This document shows, piece by piece, positions 51,139 to 57,974 of a stretch of DNA of 64,000 bases; position 1 is the first letter of the stretch; each line of letters starts with the position of its first letter. The DNA is taken from positions 25,940-89,939 of IMG/VR virus record IMGVR_UViG_2906128962_000004; one strand, 5' to 3'. Made by a program: the position numbers and the translations under genes. The notes under the pieces are model-generated. The model saw only the letters and a program-made list of their open reading frames with translations, was not told the origin of the DNA and did not search any database. This stretch comes from a virus. Lineage: Duplodnaviria > Caudoviricetes.

Positions 51139-51597
51139 GTGGAAACCACAACCCCTGTAACACACCACGCCAGTAAAGCGACAACCCGAAAAAACCGGGC
51201 TCAGCGGCTCCTGATCAAAGAACTATTCCCTGCTCTTTTCCAGGGTAACCATCCGCTGCCGATGAAGAATGGCATCAAAGACGACATGCTCACACAAATC
51301 GTCAGACGTGGCTTGGATATCTCCGAGGAAAAATTACAGCAGTCTTTACGCGCCTGTTGCTGCTCTCAGGTATATCAAATGCGCATCATCAACGGCCGCG
51401 CTCGCTATGATATTGACGGTAAACCAGTAGAAGAGATCAGTAAGGAAGATAAGAAACACGCCAGGGGGCGTGTCAATAAATACCGAAAAGAATACGGGCT
51501 TAAGCCACTAAAGTCTGCATTACGCGGCCGTAGGCATACCCCTTCCCACTCCAAAGAAGCAACAGCAGCGGTTAGTGAACGTGGTTTAGTGAAATAA
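51139..51597 (+). CDS. ProQ/FinO-domain RNA-binding protein
   Basis: FPALF...PLPMKNGIKDD...Y..R...GRARYDIDGKPVEEI. Confidence 0.85.
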   Translation: METTTPVTHHASKATTRKNRAQRLLIKELFPALFQGNHPLPMKNGIKDDMLTQIVRRGLDISEEKLQQSLRACCCSQVYQMRIINGRARYDIDGKPVEEISKEDKKHARGRVNKYRKEYGLKPLKSALRGRRHTPSHSKEATAAVSERGLVK

Positions 51598-51768: not shown

Positions 51769-51834
51769 AGAAAACCCCCGTACATTGCTTGGGATAAACC
51801 GGCAACATAGCGAGGGTAGTTCTTGAATCTCGAC
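51769..51834 (-). ncRNA. Rdl-like antisense antitoxin RNA
   Basis: Minus promoter TTGCAA-N17-TATTCT (51841-51869); ends in CGGGGGTTTTCTCT; leader resembles the remembered E. coli ldrD/rdlD locus. Confidence 0.7.
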
Positions 51835-53601: not shown

Positions 53602-53660
53602 GTCGCAGCAAAATCTGCGGCCGGGATTGGAACCCCGATTACCTTTAACGAGCACTCAAC
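53602..53660 (+). ncRNA. c4: C4 antisense RNA
   Basis: GTCGCAGCAAAATCTGCGGCCGGGATTGGAACCCCG c4-family motif; TTGACG-N18-TAAGGT promoter; upstream of icd. Confidence 0.85.
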
Positions 53661-53709
53661 ACGCGCTCGCGTGTTTTTTTGTGCCAGCGTCCGTGCACGC
53701 CAAAATTAT

Positions 53710-53815
53710 GGTGGGCTGGATGGGGGAACCGAAAGGTTCGCCGGGTTCGTTGAAGGCCGGTAGTTCCAACCCCATTCAGTTCACCACCAAATAGAGATTG
53801 GAACCTCTCGGTGGT
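53710..53815 (+). promoter_or_regulatory. C4 target region (a1/b1, a2/b2-like)
   Basis: GCCGGTAGTTCCAACCCC complementary to the c4 GATTGGAAC loop; second GATTGGAACC element. Confidence 0.65.
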
Positions 53816-53844: not shown

Positions 53845-54039
53845 ATGGCTACTACCCCTACCCGAGTTCAATCCCAGTTTATCTGGCGCTTTTATTCCTG
53901 CCAGCTGCGTCGTTACCACATCGTTATCGCCACCAGCGAATCTGATGCCCGCTCACAGCTTCCAGATGCCCCTTGTCTTTTTGCCGCCCGATTTCCCTCG
54001 AACTCCCCGACGCTCTCTTACTGGAGGGCTCGCCCATGA
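53845..54039 (+). CDS. icd: Icd-like host cell division inhibitor
   Basis: MATTPT...FIWRF...IATSESDARSQL...LFAARFP. Confidence 0.85.
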   Translation: MATTPTRVQSQFIWRFYSCQLRRYHIVIATSESDARSQLPDAPCLFAARFPSNSPTLSYWRARP

Positions 54040-54248
54040 CCTTTCTGACAGAAGAAGCGATCGCCGCTGCGGCCAAAAAACTGCATGTAGACATCACTGG
54101 CATCAATGCAATTTCCACGCTGGCCAGCCATTTTATGATTACAGAAGGCTTTTACTTACTCAGTAATAAATCTGTCATTAAGCGCCGTCTGGTTGGTGAA
54201 ATTAAGGCTTTTTTAGGGCAATCACAGGGAATGAAGGTGGCCAAATGA
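54036..54248 (+). CDS. Small hypothetical protein coupled to icd
   Basis: ATGA overlap with icd stop. Confidence 0.55.
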   Translation: MTFLTEEAIAAAAKKLHVDITGINAISTLASHFMITEGFYLLSNKSVIKRRLVGEIKAFLGQSQGMKVAK

Positions 54249-54979
54249 ATACGACCAAAAATGAAATTGTCGCGCCGGTGATTTGCGGTGTGGAGATCAC
54301 AACAGACGCAGAAGGTCGTTTCAACCTCAATGCGTTGCATAGAGCCAGTGGTGGAGAGAAAAAGAATGGCCCTACGTATTGGTTTTCCCTCGATAGCACC
54401 ACTCAACTAATAACTGAACTTGAAAAACAAACTACCGGGATCACGGTAGTAAAGAAAGAAGGCCGTAACGGTGGTACCTTCGCTCACGAGCTACTGGCCA
54501 TTGAATATGCCGGTTGGATCTCTCCAGCCTTCCGACTGCAGGTAAACCAGACATTTCTGGACTACCGCACCGGCAAACTAACGCTACCAGCAGAGCACTC
54601 AGCATCCCATCAATTGATACAGTCACAGCAACGCCAAATCGAACTGCTGGAAGAGCTGCTCATGCGCGAGCGCGAAAACTCACAACTCCGCGCCAAACTG
54701 GAAGAGAAAAACAATCACCACCAGCCGTTAACGAACCAGGAACTACTGCGCGAACGTGACGAGCTGGCGGAACGGCTAGGCCGGAGCCGCAACTATGCCA
54801 CCCTCGATGCAGTTGAAAGGAAAATGGGACGAGAATATCAATGGCACCGGCTGCGTAACTGGTGTCTCAGGAATAACGTCGAGCCGCTCGTGCTGCGCAA
54901 ATTTCAGTGTGTCCACGCCTGGCCCCGCGGCGCATGGCTGGATGTATATGGGGTTGATTTAGAAGAACTCTTCGGTTGA
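54245..54979 (+). CDS. KilA-N domain antirepressor-like protein
   Basis: DAEGRFNLNALHRASG...GGTFAHELLAIEYAGWISPAFRLQVNQTF. Confidence 0.9.
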   Translation: MNTTKNEIVAPVICGVEITTDAEGRFNLNALHRASGGEKKNGPTYWFSLDSTTQLITELEKQTTGITVVKKEGRNGGTFAHELLAIEYAGWISPAFRLQVNQTFLDYRTGKLTLPAEHSASHQLIQSQQRQIELLEELLMRERENSQLRAKLEEKNNHHQPLTNQELLRERDELAERLGRSRNYATLDAVERKMGREYQWHRLRNWCLRNNVEPLVLRKFQCVHAWPRGAWLDVYGVDLEELFG

Positions 54980-54987
54980 TAGAGACG

Positions 54988-55019
54988 AAAAAAAACCGCC
55001 GTAGGAAGGGCGGTTTTTT
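54988..55019. terminator. Bidirectional terminator
   Basis: A8-CCGCC...GGCGG-T6. Confidence 0.8.
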
Positions 55020-55074
55020 CTTGTTCCGGTTGTTAGGAGTAACAGGAACATATTATGAAGACTCGTAAATTAAC
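54988..55074 (-). ncRNA. Candidate 87-nt sRNA antitoxin
   Basis: Promoter TTGCAT-N17-TACTAT places +1 at 55074; first 19 nt complementary to 55463-55481; internal hairpin; terminator. Confidence 0.7.
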
Positions 55075-55080
55075 GATTTA

Positions 55081-55109
55081 ATAGTAGCCCGCCATTAACT
55101 TGAATGCAA
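55081..55109 (-). promoter_or_regulatory. Sigma70 promoter of candidate sRNA
   Basis: TTGCAT (55109-55104) N17 TACTAT (55086-55081). Confidence 0.75.
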
Positions 55110-55552
55110 CCTTCCTTACTAATGCCTTTCTGTATCAGAATCTTAAAAAAACAGACTAAAAAACTTGAAAGAAAAAAAACACCTTGTATGCTTGCTTCGT
55201 TAATTTTACGGTCAGAGCAGAATCACAGAGATAATAAGTGTTAACCATTTGGCGTACTTGAGGAAGCAGTACAACCGTACTGAATACTTGGGCACACCAA
55301 AAAAAGTTTGATAATGAATTTTGAAATTTAATTAATACAAAACTCATCAGTCAAACCTCCACTCACCGGCCCTTGTTGCTGAGTGGAGTCTCTGTGCGGC
55401 CAGTGATCAGGTGTAGGAACCTTGGTTGAGCATGTCACCGGTCAATTTCCTCCCCCCTGCTGTGAAGACTCGTAAATTAACAGACTTGTCGAGGACGAAG
55501 CAGGGACTCAACCTGAGTGGCTGTCCGCACGGCTCCCAAAAGGGGCTTAGAA

Positions 55553-55672
55553 ATGAAAACTACCACTCTGTTGGTTTTAGTCATTGTCTTGAGCATGTGT
55601 TTGGCTAAGGGACCAGCGATTAATTTCTCTGGTAATACTATCCAGTTAGGCACATTCACTCAGACCAAGTAA
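55553..55672 (+). CDS. 39-aa hydrophobic peptide, candidate type I toxin (not in ORF track)
   Basis: MKTTTLLVLVIVLSMCLAKGPAINFSGNTIQLGTFTQTK; long structured leader; own terminator. Confidence 0.7.
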   Translation: MKTTTLLVLVIVLSMCLAKGPAINFSGNTIQLGTFTQTK

Positions 55673-55696
55673 CGATAAAATGTCTTTGGACTTTTT

Positions 55697-55719
55697 CGCC
55701 ACCTTCGGGTGGCGTTTTT
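55697..55719 (+). terminator. Terminator after 39-aa ORF
   Basis: CGCCACC-TTCG-GGTGGCG-TTTTT. Confidence 0.8.
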
Positions 55720-55758
55720 GTTTCCCTCTCCAGCAGGTCCAAGCCAGCAAAAGGTATG

Positions 55759-56126
55759 CACTTTCATAAACCCTCCATACCTTTTCTTCAAAAGGTGGGT
55801 AGCTTCATAAAAGGTGACTCGCCTCTCTTTAAAGGTGACCACTTTCATAAAAATGTGACCTTGTAACGCATCAAAACACCTTCCGTTTGATGGAATGTGA
55901 CCACGTAACTATCAAAAAGGTGGCTGCTTTCGTAAGTGGGTAAAAACACAGTTATGAAAGTGGTCACCTTTAGTCTTTTTTTTATGAAACTGCCCACCTA
56001 ATTACCGAATACACACCCGCCTCTTTATGAAAGTGGTCACCTTTTTATGATACCAGCCACCCCAAACAAAAAAGGCGGGCATCTCTTATGAAAATGCCCA
56101 CCTTTTTTATGAAAGTGACTACCTTT
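55759..56126. repeat. incA-like copy-control iterons downstream of repA
   Basis: Multiple TTATGAAAGTGGTCACCTTT-like repeats in both orientations. Confidence 0.85.
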
Positions 56127-56134
56127 TTACTCTA

Positions 56135-57073
56135 TCACTGCTCGCCACCATCTCCTTCATTTTCCTCATTTTTTCCTTTAGATGAGGTCAACTTAAGGTT
56201 TGGTCTGCGTGCGAGGATCGTGAACTGAATTTCACGCCCCTTCTTCACCTCTTTGTACTCCAGGTATCCGATCTTCTCTAAGTCAGCCAGTGCCTTTCTG
56301 ATTGTCTGGTTTTGAGTCTTCACCGGTGAGTCCAGTAACAGTCGCTCACGGAACCGCTTCATTGTCATAAACAGAGGGCCGGTGTTAGAGGGGAGGCTTT
56401 CAAGATAGATATACAGAGCCTGTGCAGCTTCCTTTCGAGAGAGGTTTGACAGCGGTTTCAGACTTAGCAGGATTTTATGATCCCAGCGATATAACTCCCA
56501 CAAATCCTTATCGCCTACCAGTTCAACGACATCCTCATTTTCATCCAGCTTAGCTTTCTGTACCAGGTGGCTCACCATATTCTTGGTGCCATCTTTACTG
56601 GTAAATCCGAGCGTTACACTCGCGATATTGAATAATGACTCTTTCAGGCGAGTGCGCGCACGGCCGTTGAGGTCAGTTGGCCGGAGACCGCACATCCGCC
56701 CGAACTCAGAGAATGAGAGAGTAATCTTCTCACCTTCAAAGCCATATTTAGAGAAAGCTGATACTATCCCTATCCATGCTTTGAAATCCGTGGACATGTT
56801 GAGCTTGGCACCCTGGATTCTGATCTTCGTGTAGCCCTCGCGACGTGCGATTTCCAGCGTTGATAGCTCTTCAGACGCATCAATAAGGAAATCACGCTTA
56901 CCACGTTCCTTCGGTGCGACAGGCGTGAACACGCTAAGGCGGAGCAACGCCCTTGGCTGAACACTTTTGTCGTCACTTGGCACAAGCATGTAATCTTTAC
57001 CAGTTTCACGGTGAACTACGAACGGATGTTCTGGGTTTAAACCGTCATCTGTCTGATTTTCAGTCGATTCCAT
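56135..57073 (-). CDS. repA: Plasmid replication initiator RepA (Rep_3, P1/IncFIB-like)
   Basis: VQPRALLRLSVFTP, REGYTKIRIQGAKLNMSTDFKAWIGI, QNQTIRKALADLEKIGYL. Confidence 0.92.
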   Translation of the reverse strand: MESTENQTDDGLNPEHPFVVHRETGKDYMLVPSDDKSVQPRALLRLSVFTPVAPKERGKRDFLIDASEELSTLEIARREGYTKIRIQGAKLNMSTDFKAWIGIVSAFSKYGFEGEKITLSFSEFGRMCGLRPTDLNGRARTRLKESLFNIASVTLGFTSKDGTKNMVSHLVQKAKLDENEDVVELVGDKDLWELYRWDHKILLSLKPLSNLSRKEAAQALYIYLESLPSNTGPLFMTMKRFRERLLLDSPVKTQNQTIRKALADLEKIGYLEYKEVKKGREIQFTILARRPNLKLTSSKGKNEENEGDGGEQ

Positions 57074-57099
57074 CGTCTACACTCAGATTTTACCGATTA

Positions 57100-57450
57100 C
57101 GAGCCTGTGAATAAGAGTGTGCATAATCGGTGGTTAAAAATTTCACATCACGTAGAGGATCTACATGAAAAGCATTGATAACAAAGATGTTTTTTGAGTT
57201 ATTCACACACCTGTGGATAAAAAACACAAATTTTATGAAAGTGCCCACCTTTGATTTATGAAAGTGTCCACTAAAATTATGAAAGTGTCCACCAAAATTA
57301 TGAAAGTGCCCACTTTTTTTATGAAAGTGTTAACCCAAAGTGCCGTTTTTATTTTTAGAATCATGAAGTTACAAGCGTGGTGATCTTTATTGATCTGTAT
57401 ATTGATCTATATATTGATCTAAAAGACTATGATCTACGGTGTGGATAATA
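57100..57450. other. Iteron replication origin (oriR-like)
   Basis: Five iterons at 57233, 57256, 57277, 57298, 57319; GATC at 57382, 57392, 57404, 57416, 57431; DnaA boxes TGTGGATAA at 57212 and 57440. Confidence 0.88.
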
Positions 57451-57482
57451 ATAAAAGGGCACCCAAAAGAGTGCCACGTCAG

Positions 57483-57974
57483 TTAGTTGATTTCTGCCAC
57501 CTTACCACCAAAGTTTTTGTAGGCCTCGATCAGAACTTCAACCTTATGCTCTCTCTGGCCGTACCCCGCGCCCGGGAAGCTTGCCCAGATATTAGCGCAC
57601 TTGGCGATCGCCCGTCGGATATGGCCAGCTTCAATATCTGCAATAGCACGCTGTTCCTTCAGCAATTGCAGACAAAGCCTGTCCTGGCTCTCTGGGCTAA
57701 AATCTTTCAACCCCAGTTGCTCTTTGTACGTCGGCCAATATTTGTAAAGCTGCTGGTAGCCGCCAGACGCAGTAGAACGCTGCCCAGCTTTGTTAAAAAC
57801 TTTCCCCGGACGGCCCTTGGCGAAAGGATGATCGCTGAAATCAGTAAAAACCTCTGGTTTACCATCGATGCCCGTGACGATCACATCGTAGCCGTCATTC
57901 ACTGTAAGCGGATGATTTAGCGTGCCCTCAGAAAAACGGATCGTTTTCATAAACGCTTGTATGTTCGGATTCAT
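57483..57974 (-). CDS. Endolysin (lambda R-like lysozyme)
   Basis: IRFSEGT, GYDVIV, STASGGYQ, DFSPESQD, WASFPGAGYGQ. Confidence 0.92.
   Translation of the reverse strand: MNPNIQAFMKTIRFSEGTLNHPLTVNDGYDVIVTGIDGKPEVFTDFSDHPFAKGRPGKVFNKAGQRSTASGGYQQLYKYWPTYKEQLGLKDFSPESQDRLCLQLLKEQRAIADIEAGHIRRAIAKCANIWASFPGAGYGQREHKVEVLIEAYKNFGGKVAEIN

What the first reader, a model, noticed from the sequence alone, without database searches (positions are those of the whole stretch)
54988..55719. Unannotated divergent type I toxin-antitoxin-like system beside the replicon
An exact 19-bp direct repeat TGAAGACTCGTAAATTAAC occurs at 55056-55074 and 55463-55481. A near-consensus minus-strand promoter (TTGCAT-N17-TACTAT) puts +1 exactly at 55074. 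The resulting 87-nt sRNA ends at a U8 terminator and begins with 19 nt perfectly complementary to the 5' leader of a plus-strand mRNA. That mRNA has a hairpin-rich leader with an apparently occluded RBS (GCTCC/GGGGC), encodes a 39-aa N-terminally hydrophobic peptide and has its own terminator. This is the tisB/istR, shoB/ohsC, zorO/orzO, timP/timR architecture, but I recognise neither the RNA nor the peptide as any of them; TimP is closest in peptide layout. It occupies the slot where P1 has parAB, consistent with plasmid maintenance or abortive defence.
Basis: partly seen in the sequence, partly recalled or inferred. Interest (0 to 1): 0.85.

Follow-up and report, generated by a model that had tools for sequence, protein, structure and literature searches.

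The report
TimPR-like toxin/antisense-RNA pair on phage-plasmid
Next to the replication genes of this phage-plasmid lies an unannotated pair of genes, a 39-residue membrane-type peptide and a facing 87-base RNA whose first 21 bases match the peptide's message, which looks like a very diverged relative of the known TimP/TimR toxin-antitoxin system; whether the peptide is toxic has not been tested.

Summary
The 19-bp repeat is exact, unique in the window and not chance. The match extends to 21 bp if one G.U pair is allowed.

Ten related loci give 8 non-redundant pairs, from P1-like and N15-like phage-plasmids, Enterobacter plasmids and a Pectobacterium island.
- The two copies change together at four positions.
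- Five of the six differences between copies are G.U-compatible only if copy 1 is read from the minus strand and copy 2 from the plus strand.
- Every locus keeps a minus-strand promoter that puts +1 at the edge of the match, plus a free 5' seed, a covarying hairpin and a terminator.
It has a 354-nt structured leader with a sequestered SD and AUG.
- The 39-aa ORF is under purifying selection.

Formal TimP/ryfA models do not detect it. Profile-profile and BLASTP comparison with diverse TimPs gives a weak, collinear, full-length match.

Verdict: a real type I TA-like module, probably a diverged TimPR branch. Toxicity is untested. Earlier notes of this scan describe similar phage-plasmid TimPR-like pairs on other DNA.

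The parts
54988..55074 (-). Predicted 87-nt antisense sRNA (TimR-like antitoxin candidate): free 5' seed, hairpin SL1 with an invariant 7-nt loop, A-rich linker, terminator with U8
   Evidence: Single-sequence fold z = -5.5. Consensus fold of 8 homologues shows compensated pairs in SL1. Covariance model R1 finds it in other loci at 92-106 bits.
54988..55024 (.). Bidirectional intrinsic terminator shared by the sRNA (minus strand) and the upstream KilA-N/ant operon (plus strand)
   Evidence: (inverted repeat I19)
55054..55074 (-). sRNA seed (repeat copy 1): 21 nt complementary to the mRNA leader
   Evidence: Seed against mRNA gives dG -31.2 kcal/mol, z = -9.7, and this is the only target in the window.
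55081..55109 (-). sRNA promoter (-35, 17-nt spacer, -10). It is weak here (7 of 12 positions), but a sigma-70-type promoter sits at the same position in all loci aligned
   Evidence: alignment: the hexamers differ between loci, yet each places +1 on the G at the 5' edge of the complementarity
55165..55192 (+). mRNA promoter (TTGAAA-N16-TATGCT)
   Evidence: Listed by the consensus scan. Conserved in all loci.
55199..55719 (+). Predicted toxin mRNA of about 521 nt with a 5' UTR of about 354 nt
55215..55231 (+). 5' segment of the mRNA that pairs with 55389-55396 and 55457-55461. These long-range helices close the leader and abut the sRNA target
   Evidence: The helix with 55389-55396 is replaced wholesale by a different complementary pair in the Enterobacter and Pectobacterium loci.
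55409..55422 (+). Conserved leader hairpin with an SD-like loop (UAGGA); the stem covaries
   Evidence: (pairs 217-231 to 219-229)
55461..55481 (+). sRNA target (repeat copy 2), 91 nt upstream of the AUG. It contains a start codon (GTG here, ATG in the other loci) that opens no conserved reading frame
   Evidence: Mean unpaired probability 0.59 against 0.38 for the whole mRNA.
55531..55547 (+). Hairpin that sequesters the Shine-Dalgarno sequence
   Evidence: Five pairs kept in 7 of 7 sequences, with one G.U to A-U change. SD unpaired probability 0.16, AUG 0.06.
55553..55672 (+). 39-aa ORF (P0001): signal-peptide-like hydrophobic N-terminus and a conserved polar 21-aa tail
   Evidence: dN/dS is mostly 0.02-0.3. 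Weak full-length profile match to TimP.
55697..55719 (+). Intrinsic terminator of the mRNA

Best explanation
This is a type I toxin-antitoxin-like module of the TimP/TimR kind, and probably a very diverged branch of that family.

What the sequences show. Back-to-back promoters drive two genes. One is an 87-nt sRNA on the minus strand, with +1 at about 55074. The other is an mRNA of about 521 nt on the plus strand, with +1 at about 55199. The mRNA encodes a 39-aa protein with a signal-peptide-like hydrophobic N-terminus and a conserved polar tail. In the mRNA the SD and the AUG are buried in conserved hairpins. The long leader is closed by helices between its 5' end and sequences next to the target. 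The single-stranded 5' 21 nt of the sRNA pair with 55461-55481, 91 nt upstream of the AUG.

What is inferred. By analogy with timP/TimR, tisB/IstR-1 and zorO/OrzO, I infer that this duplex blocks a structural rearrangement or a ribosome standby step needed to open the RBS, and/or triggers RNase III cleavage. The peptide would then be made only when the sRNA is depleted, for example after loss of the element. I also infer from the resemblance to TimP that the peptide inserts in the inner membrane and inhibits growth.

Shown in silico: the RNA pair, its orientation, the promoters and terminators, the occluded RBS and the coding constraint. Inferred: repression, toxicity and any role in plasmid maintenance or defence.
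For: - The repeat is exact, unique and non-random.
- Eight non-redundant loci show paired changes at positions 10, 15, 18 and 22 of the block, while the flanks are unrelated.
- There is 1 mismatch in 160 cognate cells, against a mean of 7 when partners are permuted. The fraction of permutations at or below the observed value is 6e-4.
- Five of the six differences between copies are G.U-compatible in the proposed orientation and none of six in the reverse orientation.
- sRNA promoters are conserved in position although their sequences differ.
- The sRNA has a free seed, a covarying SL1 and a terminator.
- Seed against mRNA gives dG -31.2 kcal/mol, z = -9.7, and no other site in the 64 kb.
- The mRNA promoter is conserved, and a long-range helix is kept through complete sequence replacement.
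- The SD hairpin is conserved.
- The ORF is conserved in length and frame, with dN/dS mostly 0.02-0.3.
- The architecture equals that of timP/timR as published (PMC7667032, PMC11228461) and as seen in the K-12 locus.
- hhalign of my family against 23 diverse TimPs gives probability 62%, E = 7.6e-5, over 38 collinear columns.
- BLASTP against a bona fide Citrobacter TimP gives E = 1e-4.
- In other hosts the module sits among type II TA genes.
Against:
- No toxicity data exist for any member of this family.
- NCBIfam NF040796 gives no hit at E up to 10.
- Rfam ryfA gives no hit at E up to 10.
- My leader model R2 finds nothing in the K-12 timPR locus.
- The profile match is weak. It was reached after three tries with growing TimP alignments, and the BLASTP pair was chosen after the fact.
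- Here the C-terminal tail is more conserved than the hydrophobic part, the reverse of what is reported for TimP (PMC7667032).
- The window's own sRNA promoter is weak (7 of 12 positions).
- The covariation rests on few independent lineages.
Confidence: 0.6

Rival explanations
1. The mechanism is the same (an sRNA-repressed small membrane toxin), but the family is independent and unrelated to TimPR. The shared architecture would then be convergent, as among tisB, zorO, shoB and dinQ.
For: All curated family models fail: NF040796 and RF00126. The reciprocal model R2 also fails. The hits of sRNA model R1 on the K-12 TimR copies (24-27 bits) score no better than hits of the bare terminator on the opposite strand (31 bits), so they say nothing about homology. 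The conservation pattern along the peptide is the reverse of TimP's.
Against: - The hhalign match is full-length and collinear, and it improved as TimP diversity was added: 3.9%, then 41%, then 62%.
- Both families are 38-42 aa long, share an S-G-N motif about 13 residues from the C-terminus and end in K or R.
- BLASTP against TimP P0104 gives E = 1e-4.
- Both have a start codon inside the sRNA target, as reported for timP (PMC11228461).
Confidence: 0.2
2. The RNA pair is real, but the peptide is not a growth-inhibiting toxin. It would be a small exported or membrane-anchored protein with a specific task for the mobile element, such as superinfection exclusion or signalling, that is merely kept under sRNA control.
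For: The polar 21-aa tail is the most conserved part, with invariant G, I, N, N, Q, T, Q and K positions. This suggests a specific partner rather than generic membrane damage. Small residues at -3 and -1 after the hydrophobic core would allow signal-peptidase cleavage (read directly from the sequences). Native timP derepression gives no growth defect in Salmonella (PMC7667032).
Against: The control is multi-layered (occluded SD and AUG, a long closed leader, a dedicated antisense RNA), which is typical of toxin genes. The peptide resembles TimP, which is toxic when overexpressed. In several hosts the module lies in TA-rich islands.
Confidence: 0.15
3. The two copies act at the DNA level, as binding sites for one protein, or are kept identical by gene conversion, with no RNA-RNA pairing.
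For: Direct repeats that change together are also expected for paired operators. In locus L012 the two copies have recombined, deleting everything between them.
Against: - Differences between copies are biased towards G.U-compatible transitions in one orientation only (5 of 6 against 0 of 6).
- Copy 1 starts exactly at a promoter-defined +1, and copy 2 lies 264 nt inside a transcript.
- The site is not palindromic.
- The identity stops sharply at 20-22 bp, with unrelated flanks.
Confidence: 0.03

Closest known systems
timP/timR (ryfA with STnc2070/RyfB) type I toxin-antitoxin of Salmonella, E. coli and Shigella, and its plasmid-borne forms (e.g. Yersinia pGDT4)
   Same: - The genes are divergent, adjacent and non-overlapping.
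- The 5' end of the sRNA pairs with a stretch of about 20 nt in the 5' UTR, well upstream of an SD locked in a hairpin.
- A start codon lies within the target.
- The peptide is 38-42 aa with a signal-like N-terminus and a polar tail, and shares an S-G-N motif and a terminal K or R.
- There is a weak full-length profile match (PMC7667032, PMC11228461).
   Different: - It is not detected by NF040796 or RF00126, and my leader model does not find timP.
- The leader is about 354 nt, against 144 nt for timP.
- The tail is more conserved than the hydrophobic part.
- The conserved residues of the TimP hydrophobic segment (R4, C7, S13, G14) are absent.
- It is carried on P1-like and N15-like phage-plasmids.
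tisB/istR-1 of E. coli
   Same: A divergent sRNA binds about 100 nt upstream of a structurally closed RBS. The expected mode of action is competition for a standby site, or cleavage, rather than masking of the RBS.
   Different: There is no sequence relation (Rfam scans). No LexA box was looked for. TisB is a 29-aa helix without a polar tail (my own knowledge).
zorO/orzO, shoB/ohsC and dinQ/agrB of E. coli
   Same: The same class of trans-encoded, divergently transcribed antitoxin RNAs with 18-30 nt of complementarity to a long toxin leader (as listed in PMC7667032).
   Different: No sequence or Rfam match. The peptide layout differs: these lack a signal-like N-terminus followed by a conserved tail.
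par (Fst RNA I / RNA II) of plasmid pAD1
   Same: Complementarity arises from short direct DNA repeats read in opposite directions (my own knowledge).
   Different: The par RNAs are convergent and share a terminator. Here the genes are divergent, and there is a single repeat pair.

Membership tests
Type I TA with a trans-encoded divergent antitoxin RNA (tisB/istR-1, zorO/orzO, timP/timR class) | Small (under 60 aa) hydrophobic-peptide ORF that is really coding | tested here: met
   The ORF is 38-41 aa and conserved in frame in 11 loci. dN/dS is mostly 0.02-0.3 over the last 21 codons.
Type I TA with a trans-encoded divergent antitoxin RNA (tisB/istR-1, zorO/orzO, timP/timR class) | Separate, divergently transcribed, non-overlapping sRNA gene with its own promoter and terminator | tested here: met
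   The promoter is conserved in position across loci. A terminator and stable fold are present. The two start sites are about 125 nt apart.
Type I TA with a trans-encoded divergent antitoxin RNA (tisB/istR-1, zorO/orzO, timP/timR class) | Short sRNA-mRNA complementarity in the leader, kept by compensatory change | tested here: met
   paired changes at 4 positions, 1 mismatch in 160 cells, permutation fraction 6e-4.
Type I TA with a trans-encoded divergent antitoxin RNA (tisB/istR-1, zorO/orzO, timP/timR class) | Translation start site sequestered in mRNA structure | tested here: met
   The SD hairpin is kept in 7 of 7 sequences. Unpaired probability is 0.16 for the SD and 0.06 for the AUG.
Type I TA with a trans-encoded divergent antitoxin RNA (tisB/istR-1, zorO/orzO, timP/timR class) | The peptide is toxic on overexpression and the sRNA relieves this | not testable with these tools
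   This needs induction and rescue experiments.
TimP protein family (NCBIfam NF040796) | Score at or above the curated cut-off of 45 bits | tested here: not met
   No hit at E up to 10 for four members and up to 1 for two more (six tested), while K-12 TimP scores 86.8 bits and Citrobacter TimP P0104 scores 51 bits.
TimP protein family (NCBIfam NF040796) | Detectable remote homology to diverse TimPs | tested here: inconclusive
   hhalign gives probability 62% and E = 7.6e-5 over 38 columns. BLASTP of P0003 against P0104 gives E = 1e-4. Earlier, narrower profiles gave 3.9% and 41%.
ryfA/timP mRNA (Rfam RF00126) | Match to the covariance model | tested here: not met
   No hit at E up to 1 over 3.5 kb, or at E up to 10 over 55330-55730. 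The reciprocal model R2 gives only noise (7 bits or less) on the K-12 locus.
TimR sRNA | Sequence or structure homology of the antitoxin RNA | tested here: inconclusive
   Model R1 hits both K-12 TimR copies at 24-27 bits, but hits of the bare terminator on the opposite strand score 20-31 bits.
cis-antisense type I TA (hok/sok, ldr/rdl, ibs/sib) | The antitoxin is transcribed from the opposite strand of the toxin gene and overlaps it | tested here: not met
   The sRNA gene (54988-55074) does not overlap the mRNA (55199-55719). No Rfam hit to these families falls in 54000-57500.

The most novel reading that the evidence does not exclude
The peptide may not be a generic membrane toxin. It could be a precursor whose signal-like N-terminus is cleaved, or acts as an anchor, to present a highly conserved polar peptide of about 21 aa in the periplasm. 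That peptide would have a specific target, for example in superinfection exclusion or in signalling for phage-plasmids. The sRNA may also make a second contact through its invariant hairpin loop (CUCCUAA), which resembles the anti-SD sequence.
Probability: 0.12. Interest if true: 0.7.

Novelty: new member of a known kind. Interest (0 to 1): 0.45.

Why it matters
Phage-plasmids of the P1 and N15 types spread among clinical Enterobacteriaceae and often carry resistance genes. What keeps them in their hosts is only partly known.

This module is invisible to current annotation. It has no Rfam, Pfam, PHROG or NCBIfam model, and where the peptide is called at all it is named 'hypothetical'. Yet it is conserved across several kinds of mobile element.

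If the peptide is toxic, the module adds an RNA-controlled addiction or defence function to these elements. It would also widen the TimPR family well beyond what its models capture.

The natural seed/target variants (at least five specificities) are a ready-made set for studying how antitoxin RNAs keep their specificity.

Tried and rejected
- **Public collections.** blastn and tblastn against the phage collection and E. coli genomes found no match. Pattern scans of genome contigs and metagenome contigs were empty. L007 was a chance match inside an unrelated gene.
- **Family libraries.** The ESM Atlas gave only noise-level neighbours at about 0.8. Pfam, PHROGs and NCBIfam gave nothing for the peptide.
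- **A third RNA targeting both copies, as in P4 or P1 immunity.** Rejected: the window holds no reverse-complement copy, even with 3 mismatches.
- **A conserved leader ORF starting at the ATG in the target.** Rejected: the frame and stop differ between loci.
- **A second promoter just upstream of the conserved core near 55310-55340.** It is not conserved, and that stretch is deleted in L004 and L005.
- **Loop-loop kissing between the sRNA loop and the UAGGA leader loop.** Not supported: L011 changes the mRNA loop without a compensating change.
- **R1 hits on K-12 TimR as evidence of homology.** Rejected, because they are driven by the terminator.
- **The first hhalign, against Escherichia-only TimPs.** Negative, at probability 3.9%.

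Full report
**1. The observation**

Bases 55056-55074 and 55463-55481 are an exact 19-bp direct repeat.
- They are the only two matches in the 64-kb window on either strand, even with three mismatches allowed. No shuffle gave two matches.
- One more standard pair (55054/55461) and one U.G pair (55055/55462) extend the possible duplex to 21 bp.
They place +1 on G55074.
- These hexamers match the consensus at only 7 of 12 positions, and the consensus scan did not list them.
- The 87-nt RNA from 55074 to 54988 has a free 24-nt 5' end, one hairpin and a terminator with U8 (z = -5.5).
- The ORF is 55553-55672 (39 aa).
- Its SD lies in a 5-bp hairpin (55532-55536 with 55542-55546).
- A terminator follows at 55697-55719.

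**2. Context**

The window comes from an 89.9-kb virus record. Upstream lie isrK-like and C4 antisense RNAs at 53602-53791, then small ORFs (annotated in relative L001 as icd-like and hypothetical) and a KilA-N protein at 54245-54979. This is a P1-type immI region. Downstream lie iterons and a Rep3-type initiator at 56135-57073.

**3. Relatives**

DNA and peptide searches found the same module in several settings.
- A C. freundii 99-kb plasmid with phage genes (L001, 93% identical).
- N15-like linear plasmid prophages that encode a protelomerase (L002, L003, L011, L012).
- L013 and L014, which share the large origin-binding replication gene of those elements; their contigs hold no protelomerase.
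- Two IMG/VR contigs (L004, L005).
- E. kobei plasmids of about 100 kb, where it lies among type II TA genes (L008, L009).
- A Pectobacterium chromosomal island, beside HicB-like genes (L015, L016).

No source gives the peptide a name other than 'hypothetical'. Pfam, PHROGs and NCBIfam give no hit.

**4. The RNA pair is real**

In 8 non-redundant loci the two repeat copies are identical or nearly so over 20-22 bp, while their flanks are unrelated.
- The block differs between loci at positions 10 (C or T), 15 (A, T or G), 18 (A or G) and 22 (A, C or T), and each change appears in both copies.
- Cognate pairs show 1 mismatch in 160 positions. Permuting the partners gives a mean of 7, and only 6e-4 of permutations do as well.
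- Within loci the two copies differ at six positions. Five of these give G.U pairs if copy 1 is transcribed from the minus strand and copy 2 from the plus strand. In the opposite orientation all six would be mismatches.
- All the loci aligned have a sigma-70-type promoter that puts +1 on the G at the 5' edge of the complementarity, although the hexamers themselves differ.
- The sRNA hairpin covaries, and its 7-nt loop is nearly invariant.
- The seed binds the mRNA with dG -31.2 kcal/mol (z = -9.7) and has no other site in the window.

**5. The mRNA**

A promoter at 55165-55192 is conserved in all loci, which puts +1 near 55199.
- The 5' segment 55224-55231 pairs with 55389-55396. In the Enterobacter and Pectobacterium loci both arms are replaced by a different complementary pair. 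The upstream segment therefore belongs to the same RNA, and the leader is about 354 nt long.
- A second helix (55215-55220 with 55457-55461) abuts the target. It is invariant, so it cannot be tested by covariation.
- The distance from target to AUG is fixed at 90-97 nt.
- The SD hairpin is kept in all sequences.

**6. The peptide**

Eleven loci keep an ORF of 38-41 aa with a basic start, a hydrophobic core of 12-14 residues and a conserved polar tail. Synonymous changes dominate. For example, the window and L001 differ by 9 synonymous and 5 non-synonymous changes, and L002 and L012 by 9 and 1.

**7. Relation to TimPR**

The architecture equals that published for timP/timR (PMC7667032, PMC11228461) and that seen in the K-12 locus.

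The formal membership tests fail.
- RF00126 gives no hit.
- NF040796 gives no hit.
- My leader model does not find timP.
- The sRNA model's hits on TimR are driven by the terminator.

A note from an earlier agent of this scan (e1-5343548) prompted me to widen the TimP alignment.
- hhalign then rose from 3.9% (Escherichia only) to 41% and then to 62%. The last comparison, against 23 TimPs from six genera, gave E = 7.6e-5 over 38 collinear columns.
- BLASTP between P0003 and a bona fide Citrobacter TimP gave E = 1e-4.

I read this as probable but unproven remote homology.

**8. Mechanism**

What is shown in silico: a divergent sRNA whose free 5' end pairs with the leader far upstream of an occluded RBS.

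What is inferred by analogy with TimR, IstR-1 and OrzO: the duplex prevents the rearrangement or standby binding that opens the RBS, and/or directs RNase III cleavage. The peptide would then be made only when the sRNA decays.

Toxicity, membrane targeting and a role in maintenance or defence are inferences.

**9. Verdict**

This is a real, unannotated type I TA-like module of a known kind, carried by several kinds of mobile element. Earlier notes of this scan describe similar TimPR-like pairs on other phage-plasmids. A look-up by sequence found no look-alike of this particular stretch.

Noticed in passing
window 51769-51834 (-): An Rfam rdlD antitoxin hit at 53.4 bits (gathering score 50). This is a second, ldr/rdl-type type I TA candidate about 3.5 kb upstream of the finding.
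   Followed up: no
window 51139-51597 (+): The element encodes its own ProQ/FinO-domain protein (PF04352, E = 2.9e-19), close to two antisense-RNA modules and the C4/isrK RNAs. It may act as a chaperone for these RNAs. The C. freundii relative has the same gene.
   Followed up: partly
window 53602-53791 (+): isrK-like (70 bits) and C4 antisense RNA (82 bits) lie in tandem upstream of small ORFs (icd-like in relative L001) and a KilA-N antirepressor-like gene: a P1-type immI region.
   Followed up: partly
L012 2436-2620: In one N15-like contig the two repeat copies have recombined. The sRNA body is joined directly to the target and toxin ORF through a single copy, so both promoters are deleted. 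The repeat is therefore also a deletion hotspot.
   Followed up: partly
L003 about 360-1500: An IS481-family element (NF033577, 234.5 bits) sits exactly 5 bp upstream of the -35 of the sRNA promoter, between the sRNA gene and the mRNA promoter. Both genes are left intact. Earlier notes of this scan report the same insertion rule at the timR promoter.
   Followed up: partly
window 55028-55040 (-), loop of sRNA hairpin SL1: The 7-nt loop (CUCCUAA) is invariant in 7 of the 8 sRNAs aligned, while the stem covaries. It resembles the anti-SD sequence and matches the mRNA's own anti-SD arm. It may be a second contact with the SD or with the UAGGA leader loop, but there is no covariation to support this.
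   Followed up: partly
window 55749-56130: Two oppositely oriented sets of iterons of about 20 bp flank the 3' side of the Rep3-type initiator gene. In the C. freundii relative an IS66 element lies between the TA-like module and the rep gene.
   Followed up: no
L010 960-1330 (E. coli K-12): Between the annotated timR and ryfA, K-12 carries a second TimR-like gene and the start of a second timP-like leader. This looks like the remnant of a tandem duplication of the module.
   Followed up: no
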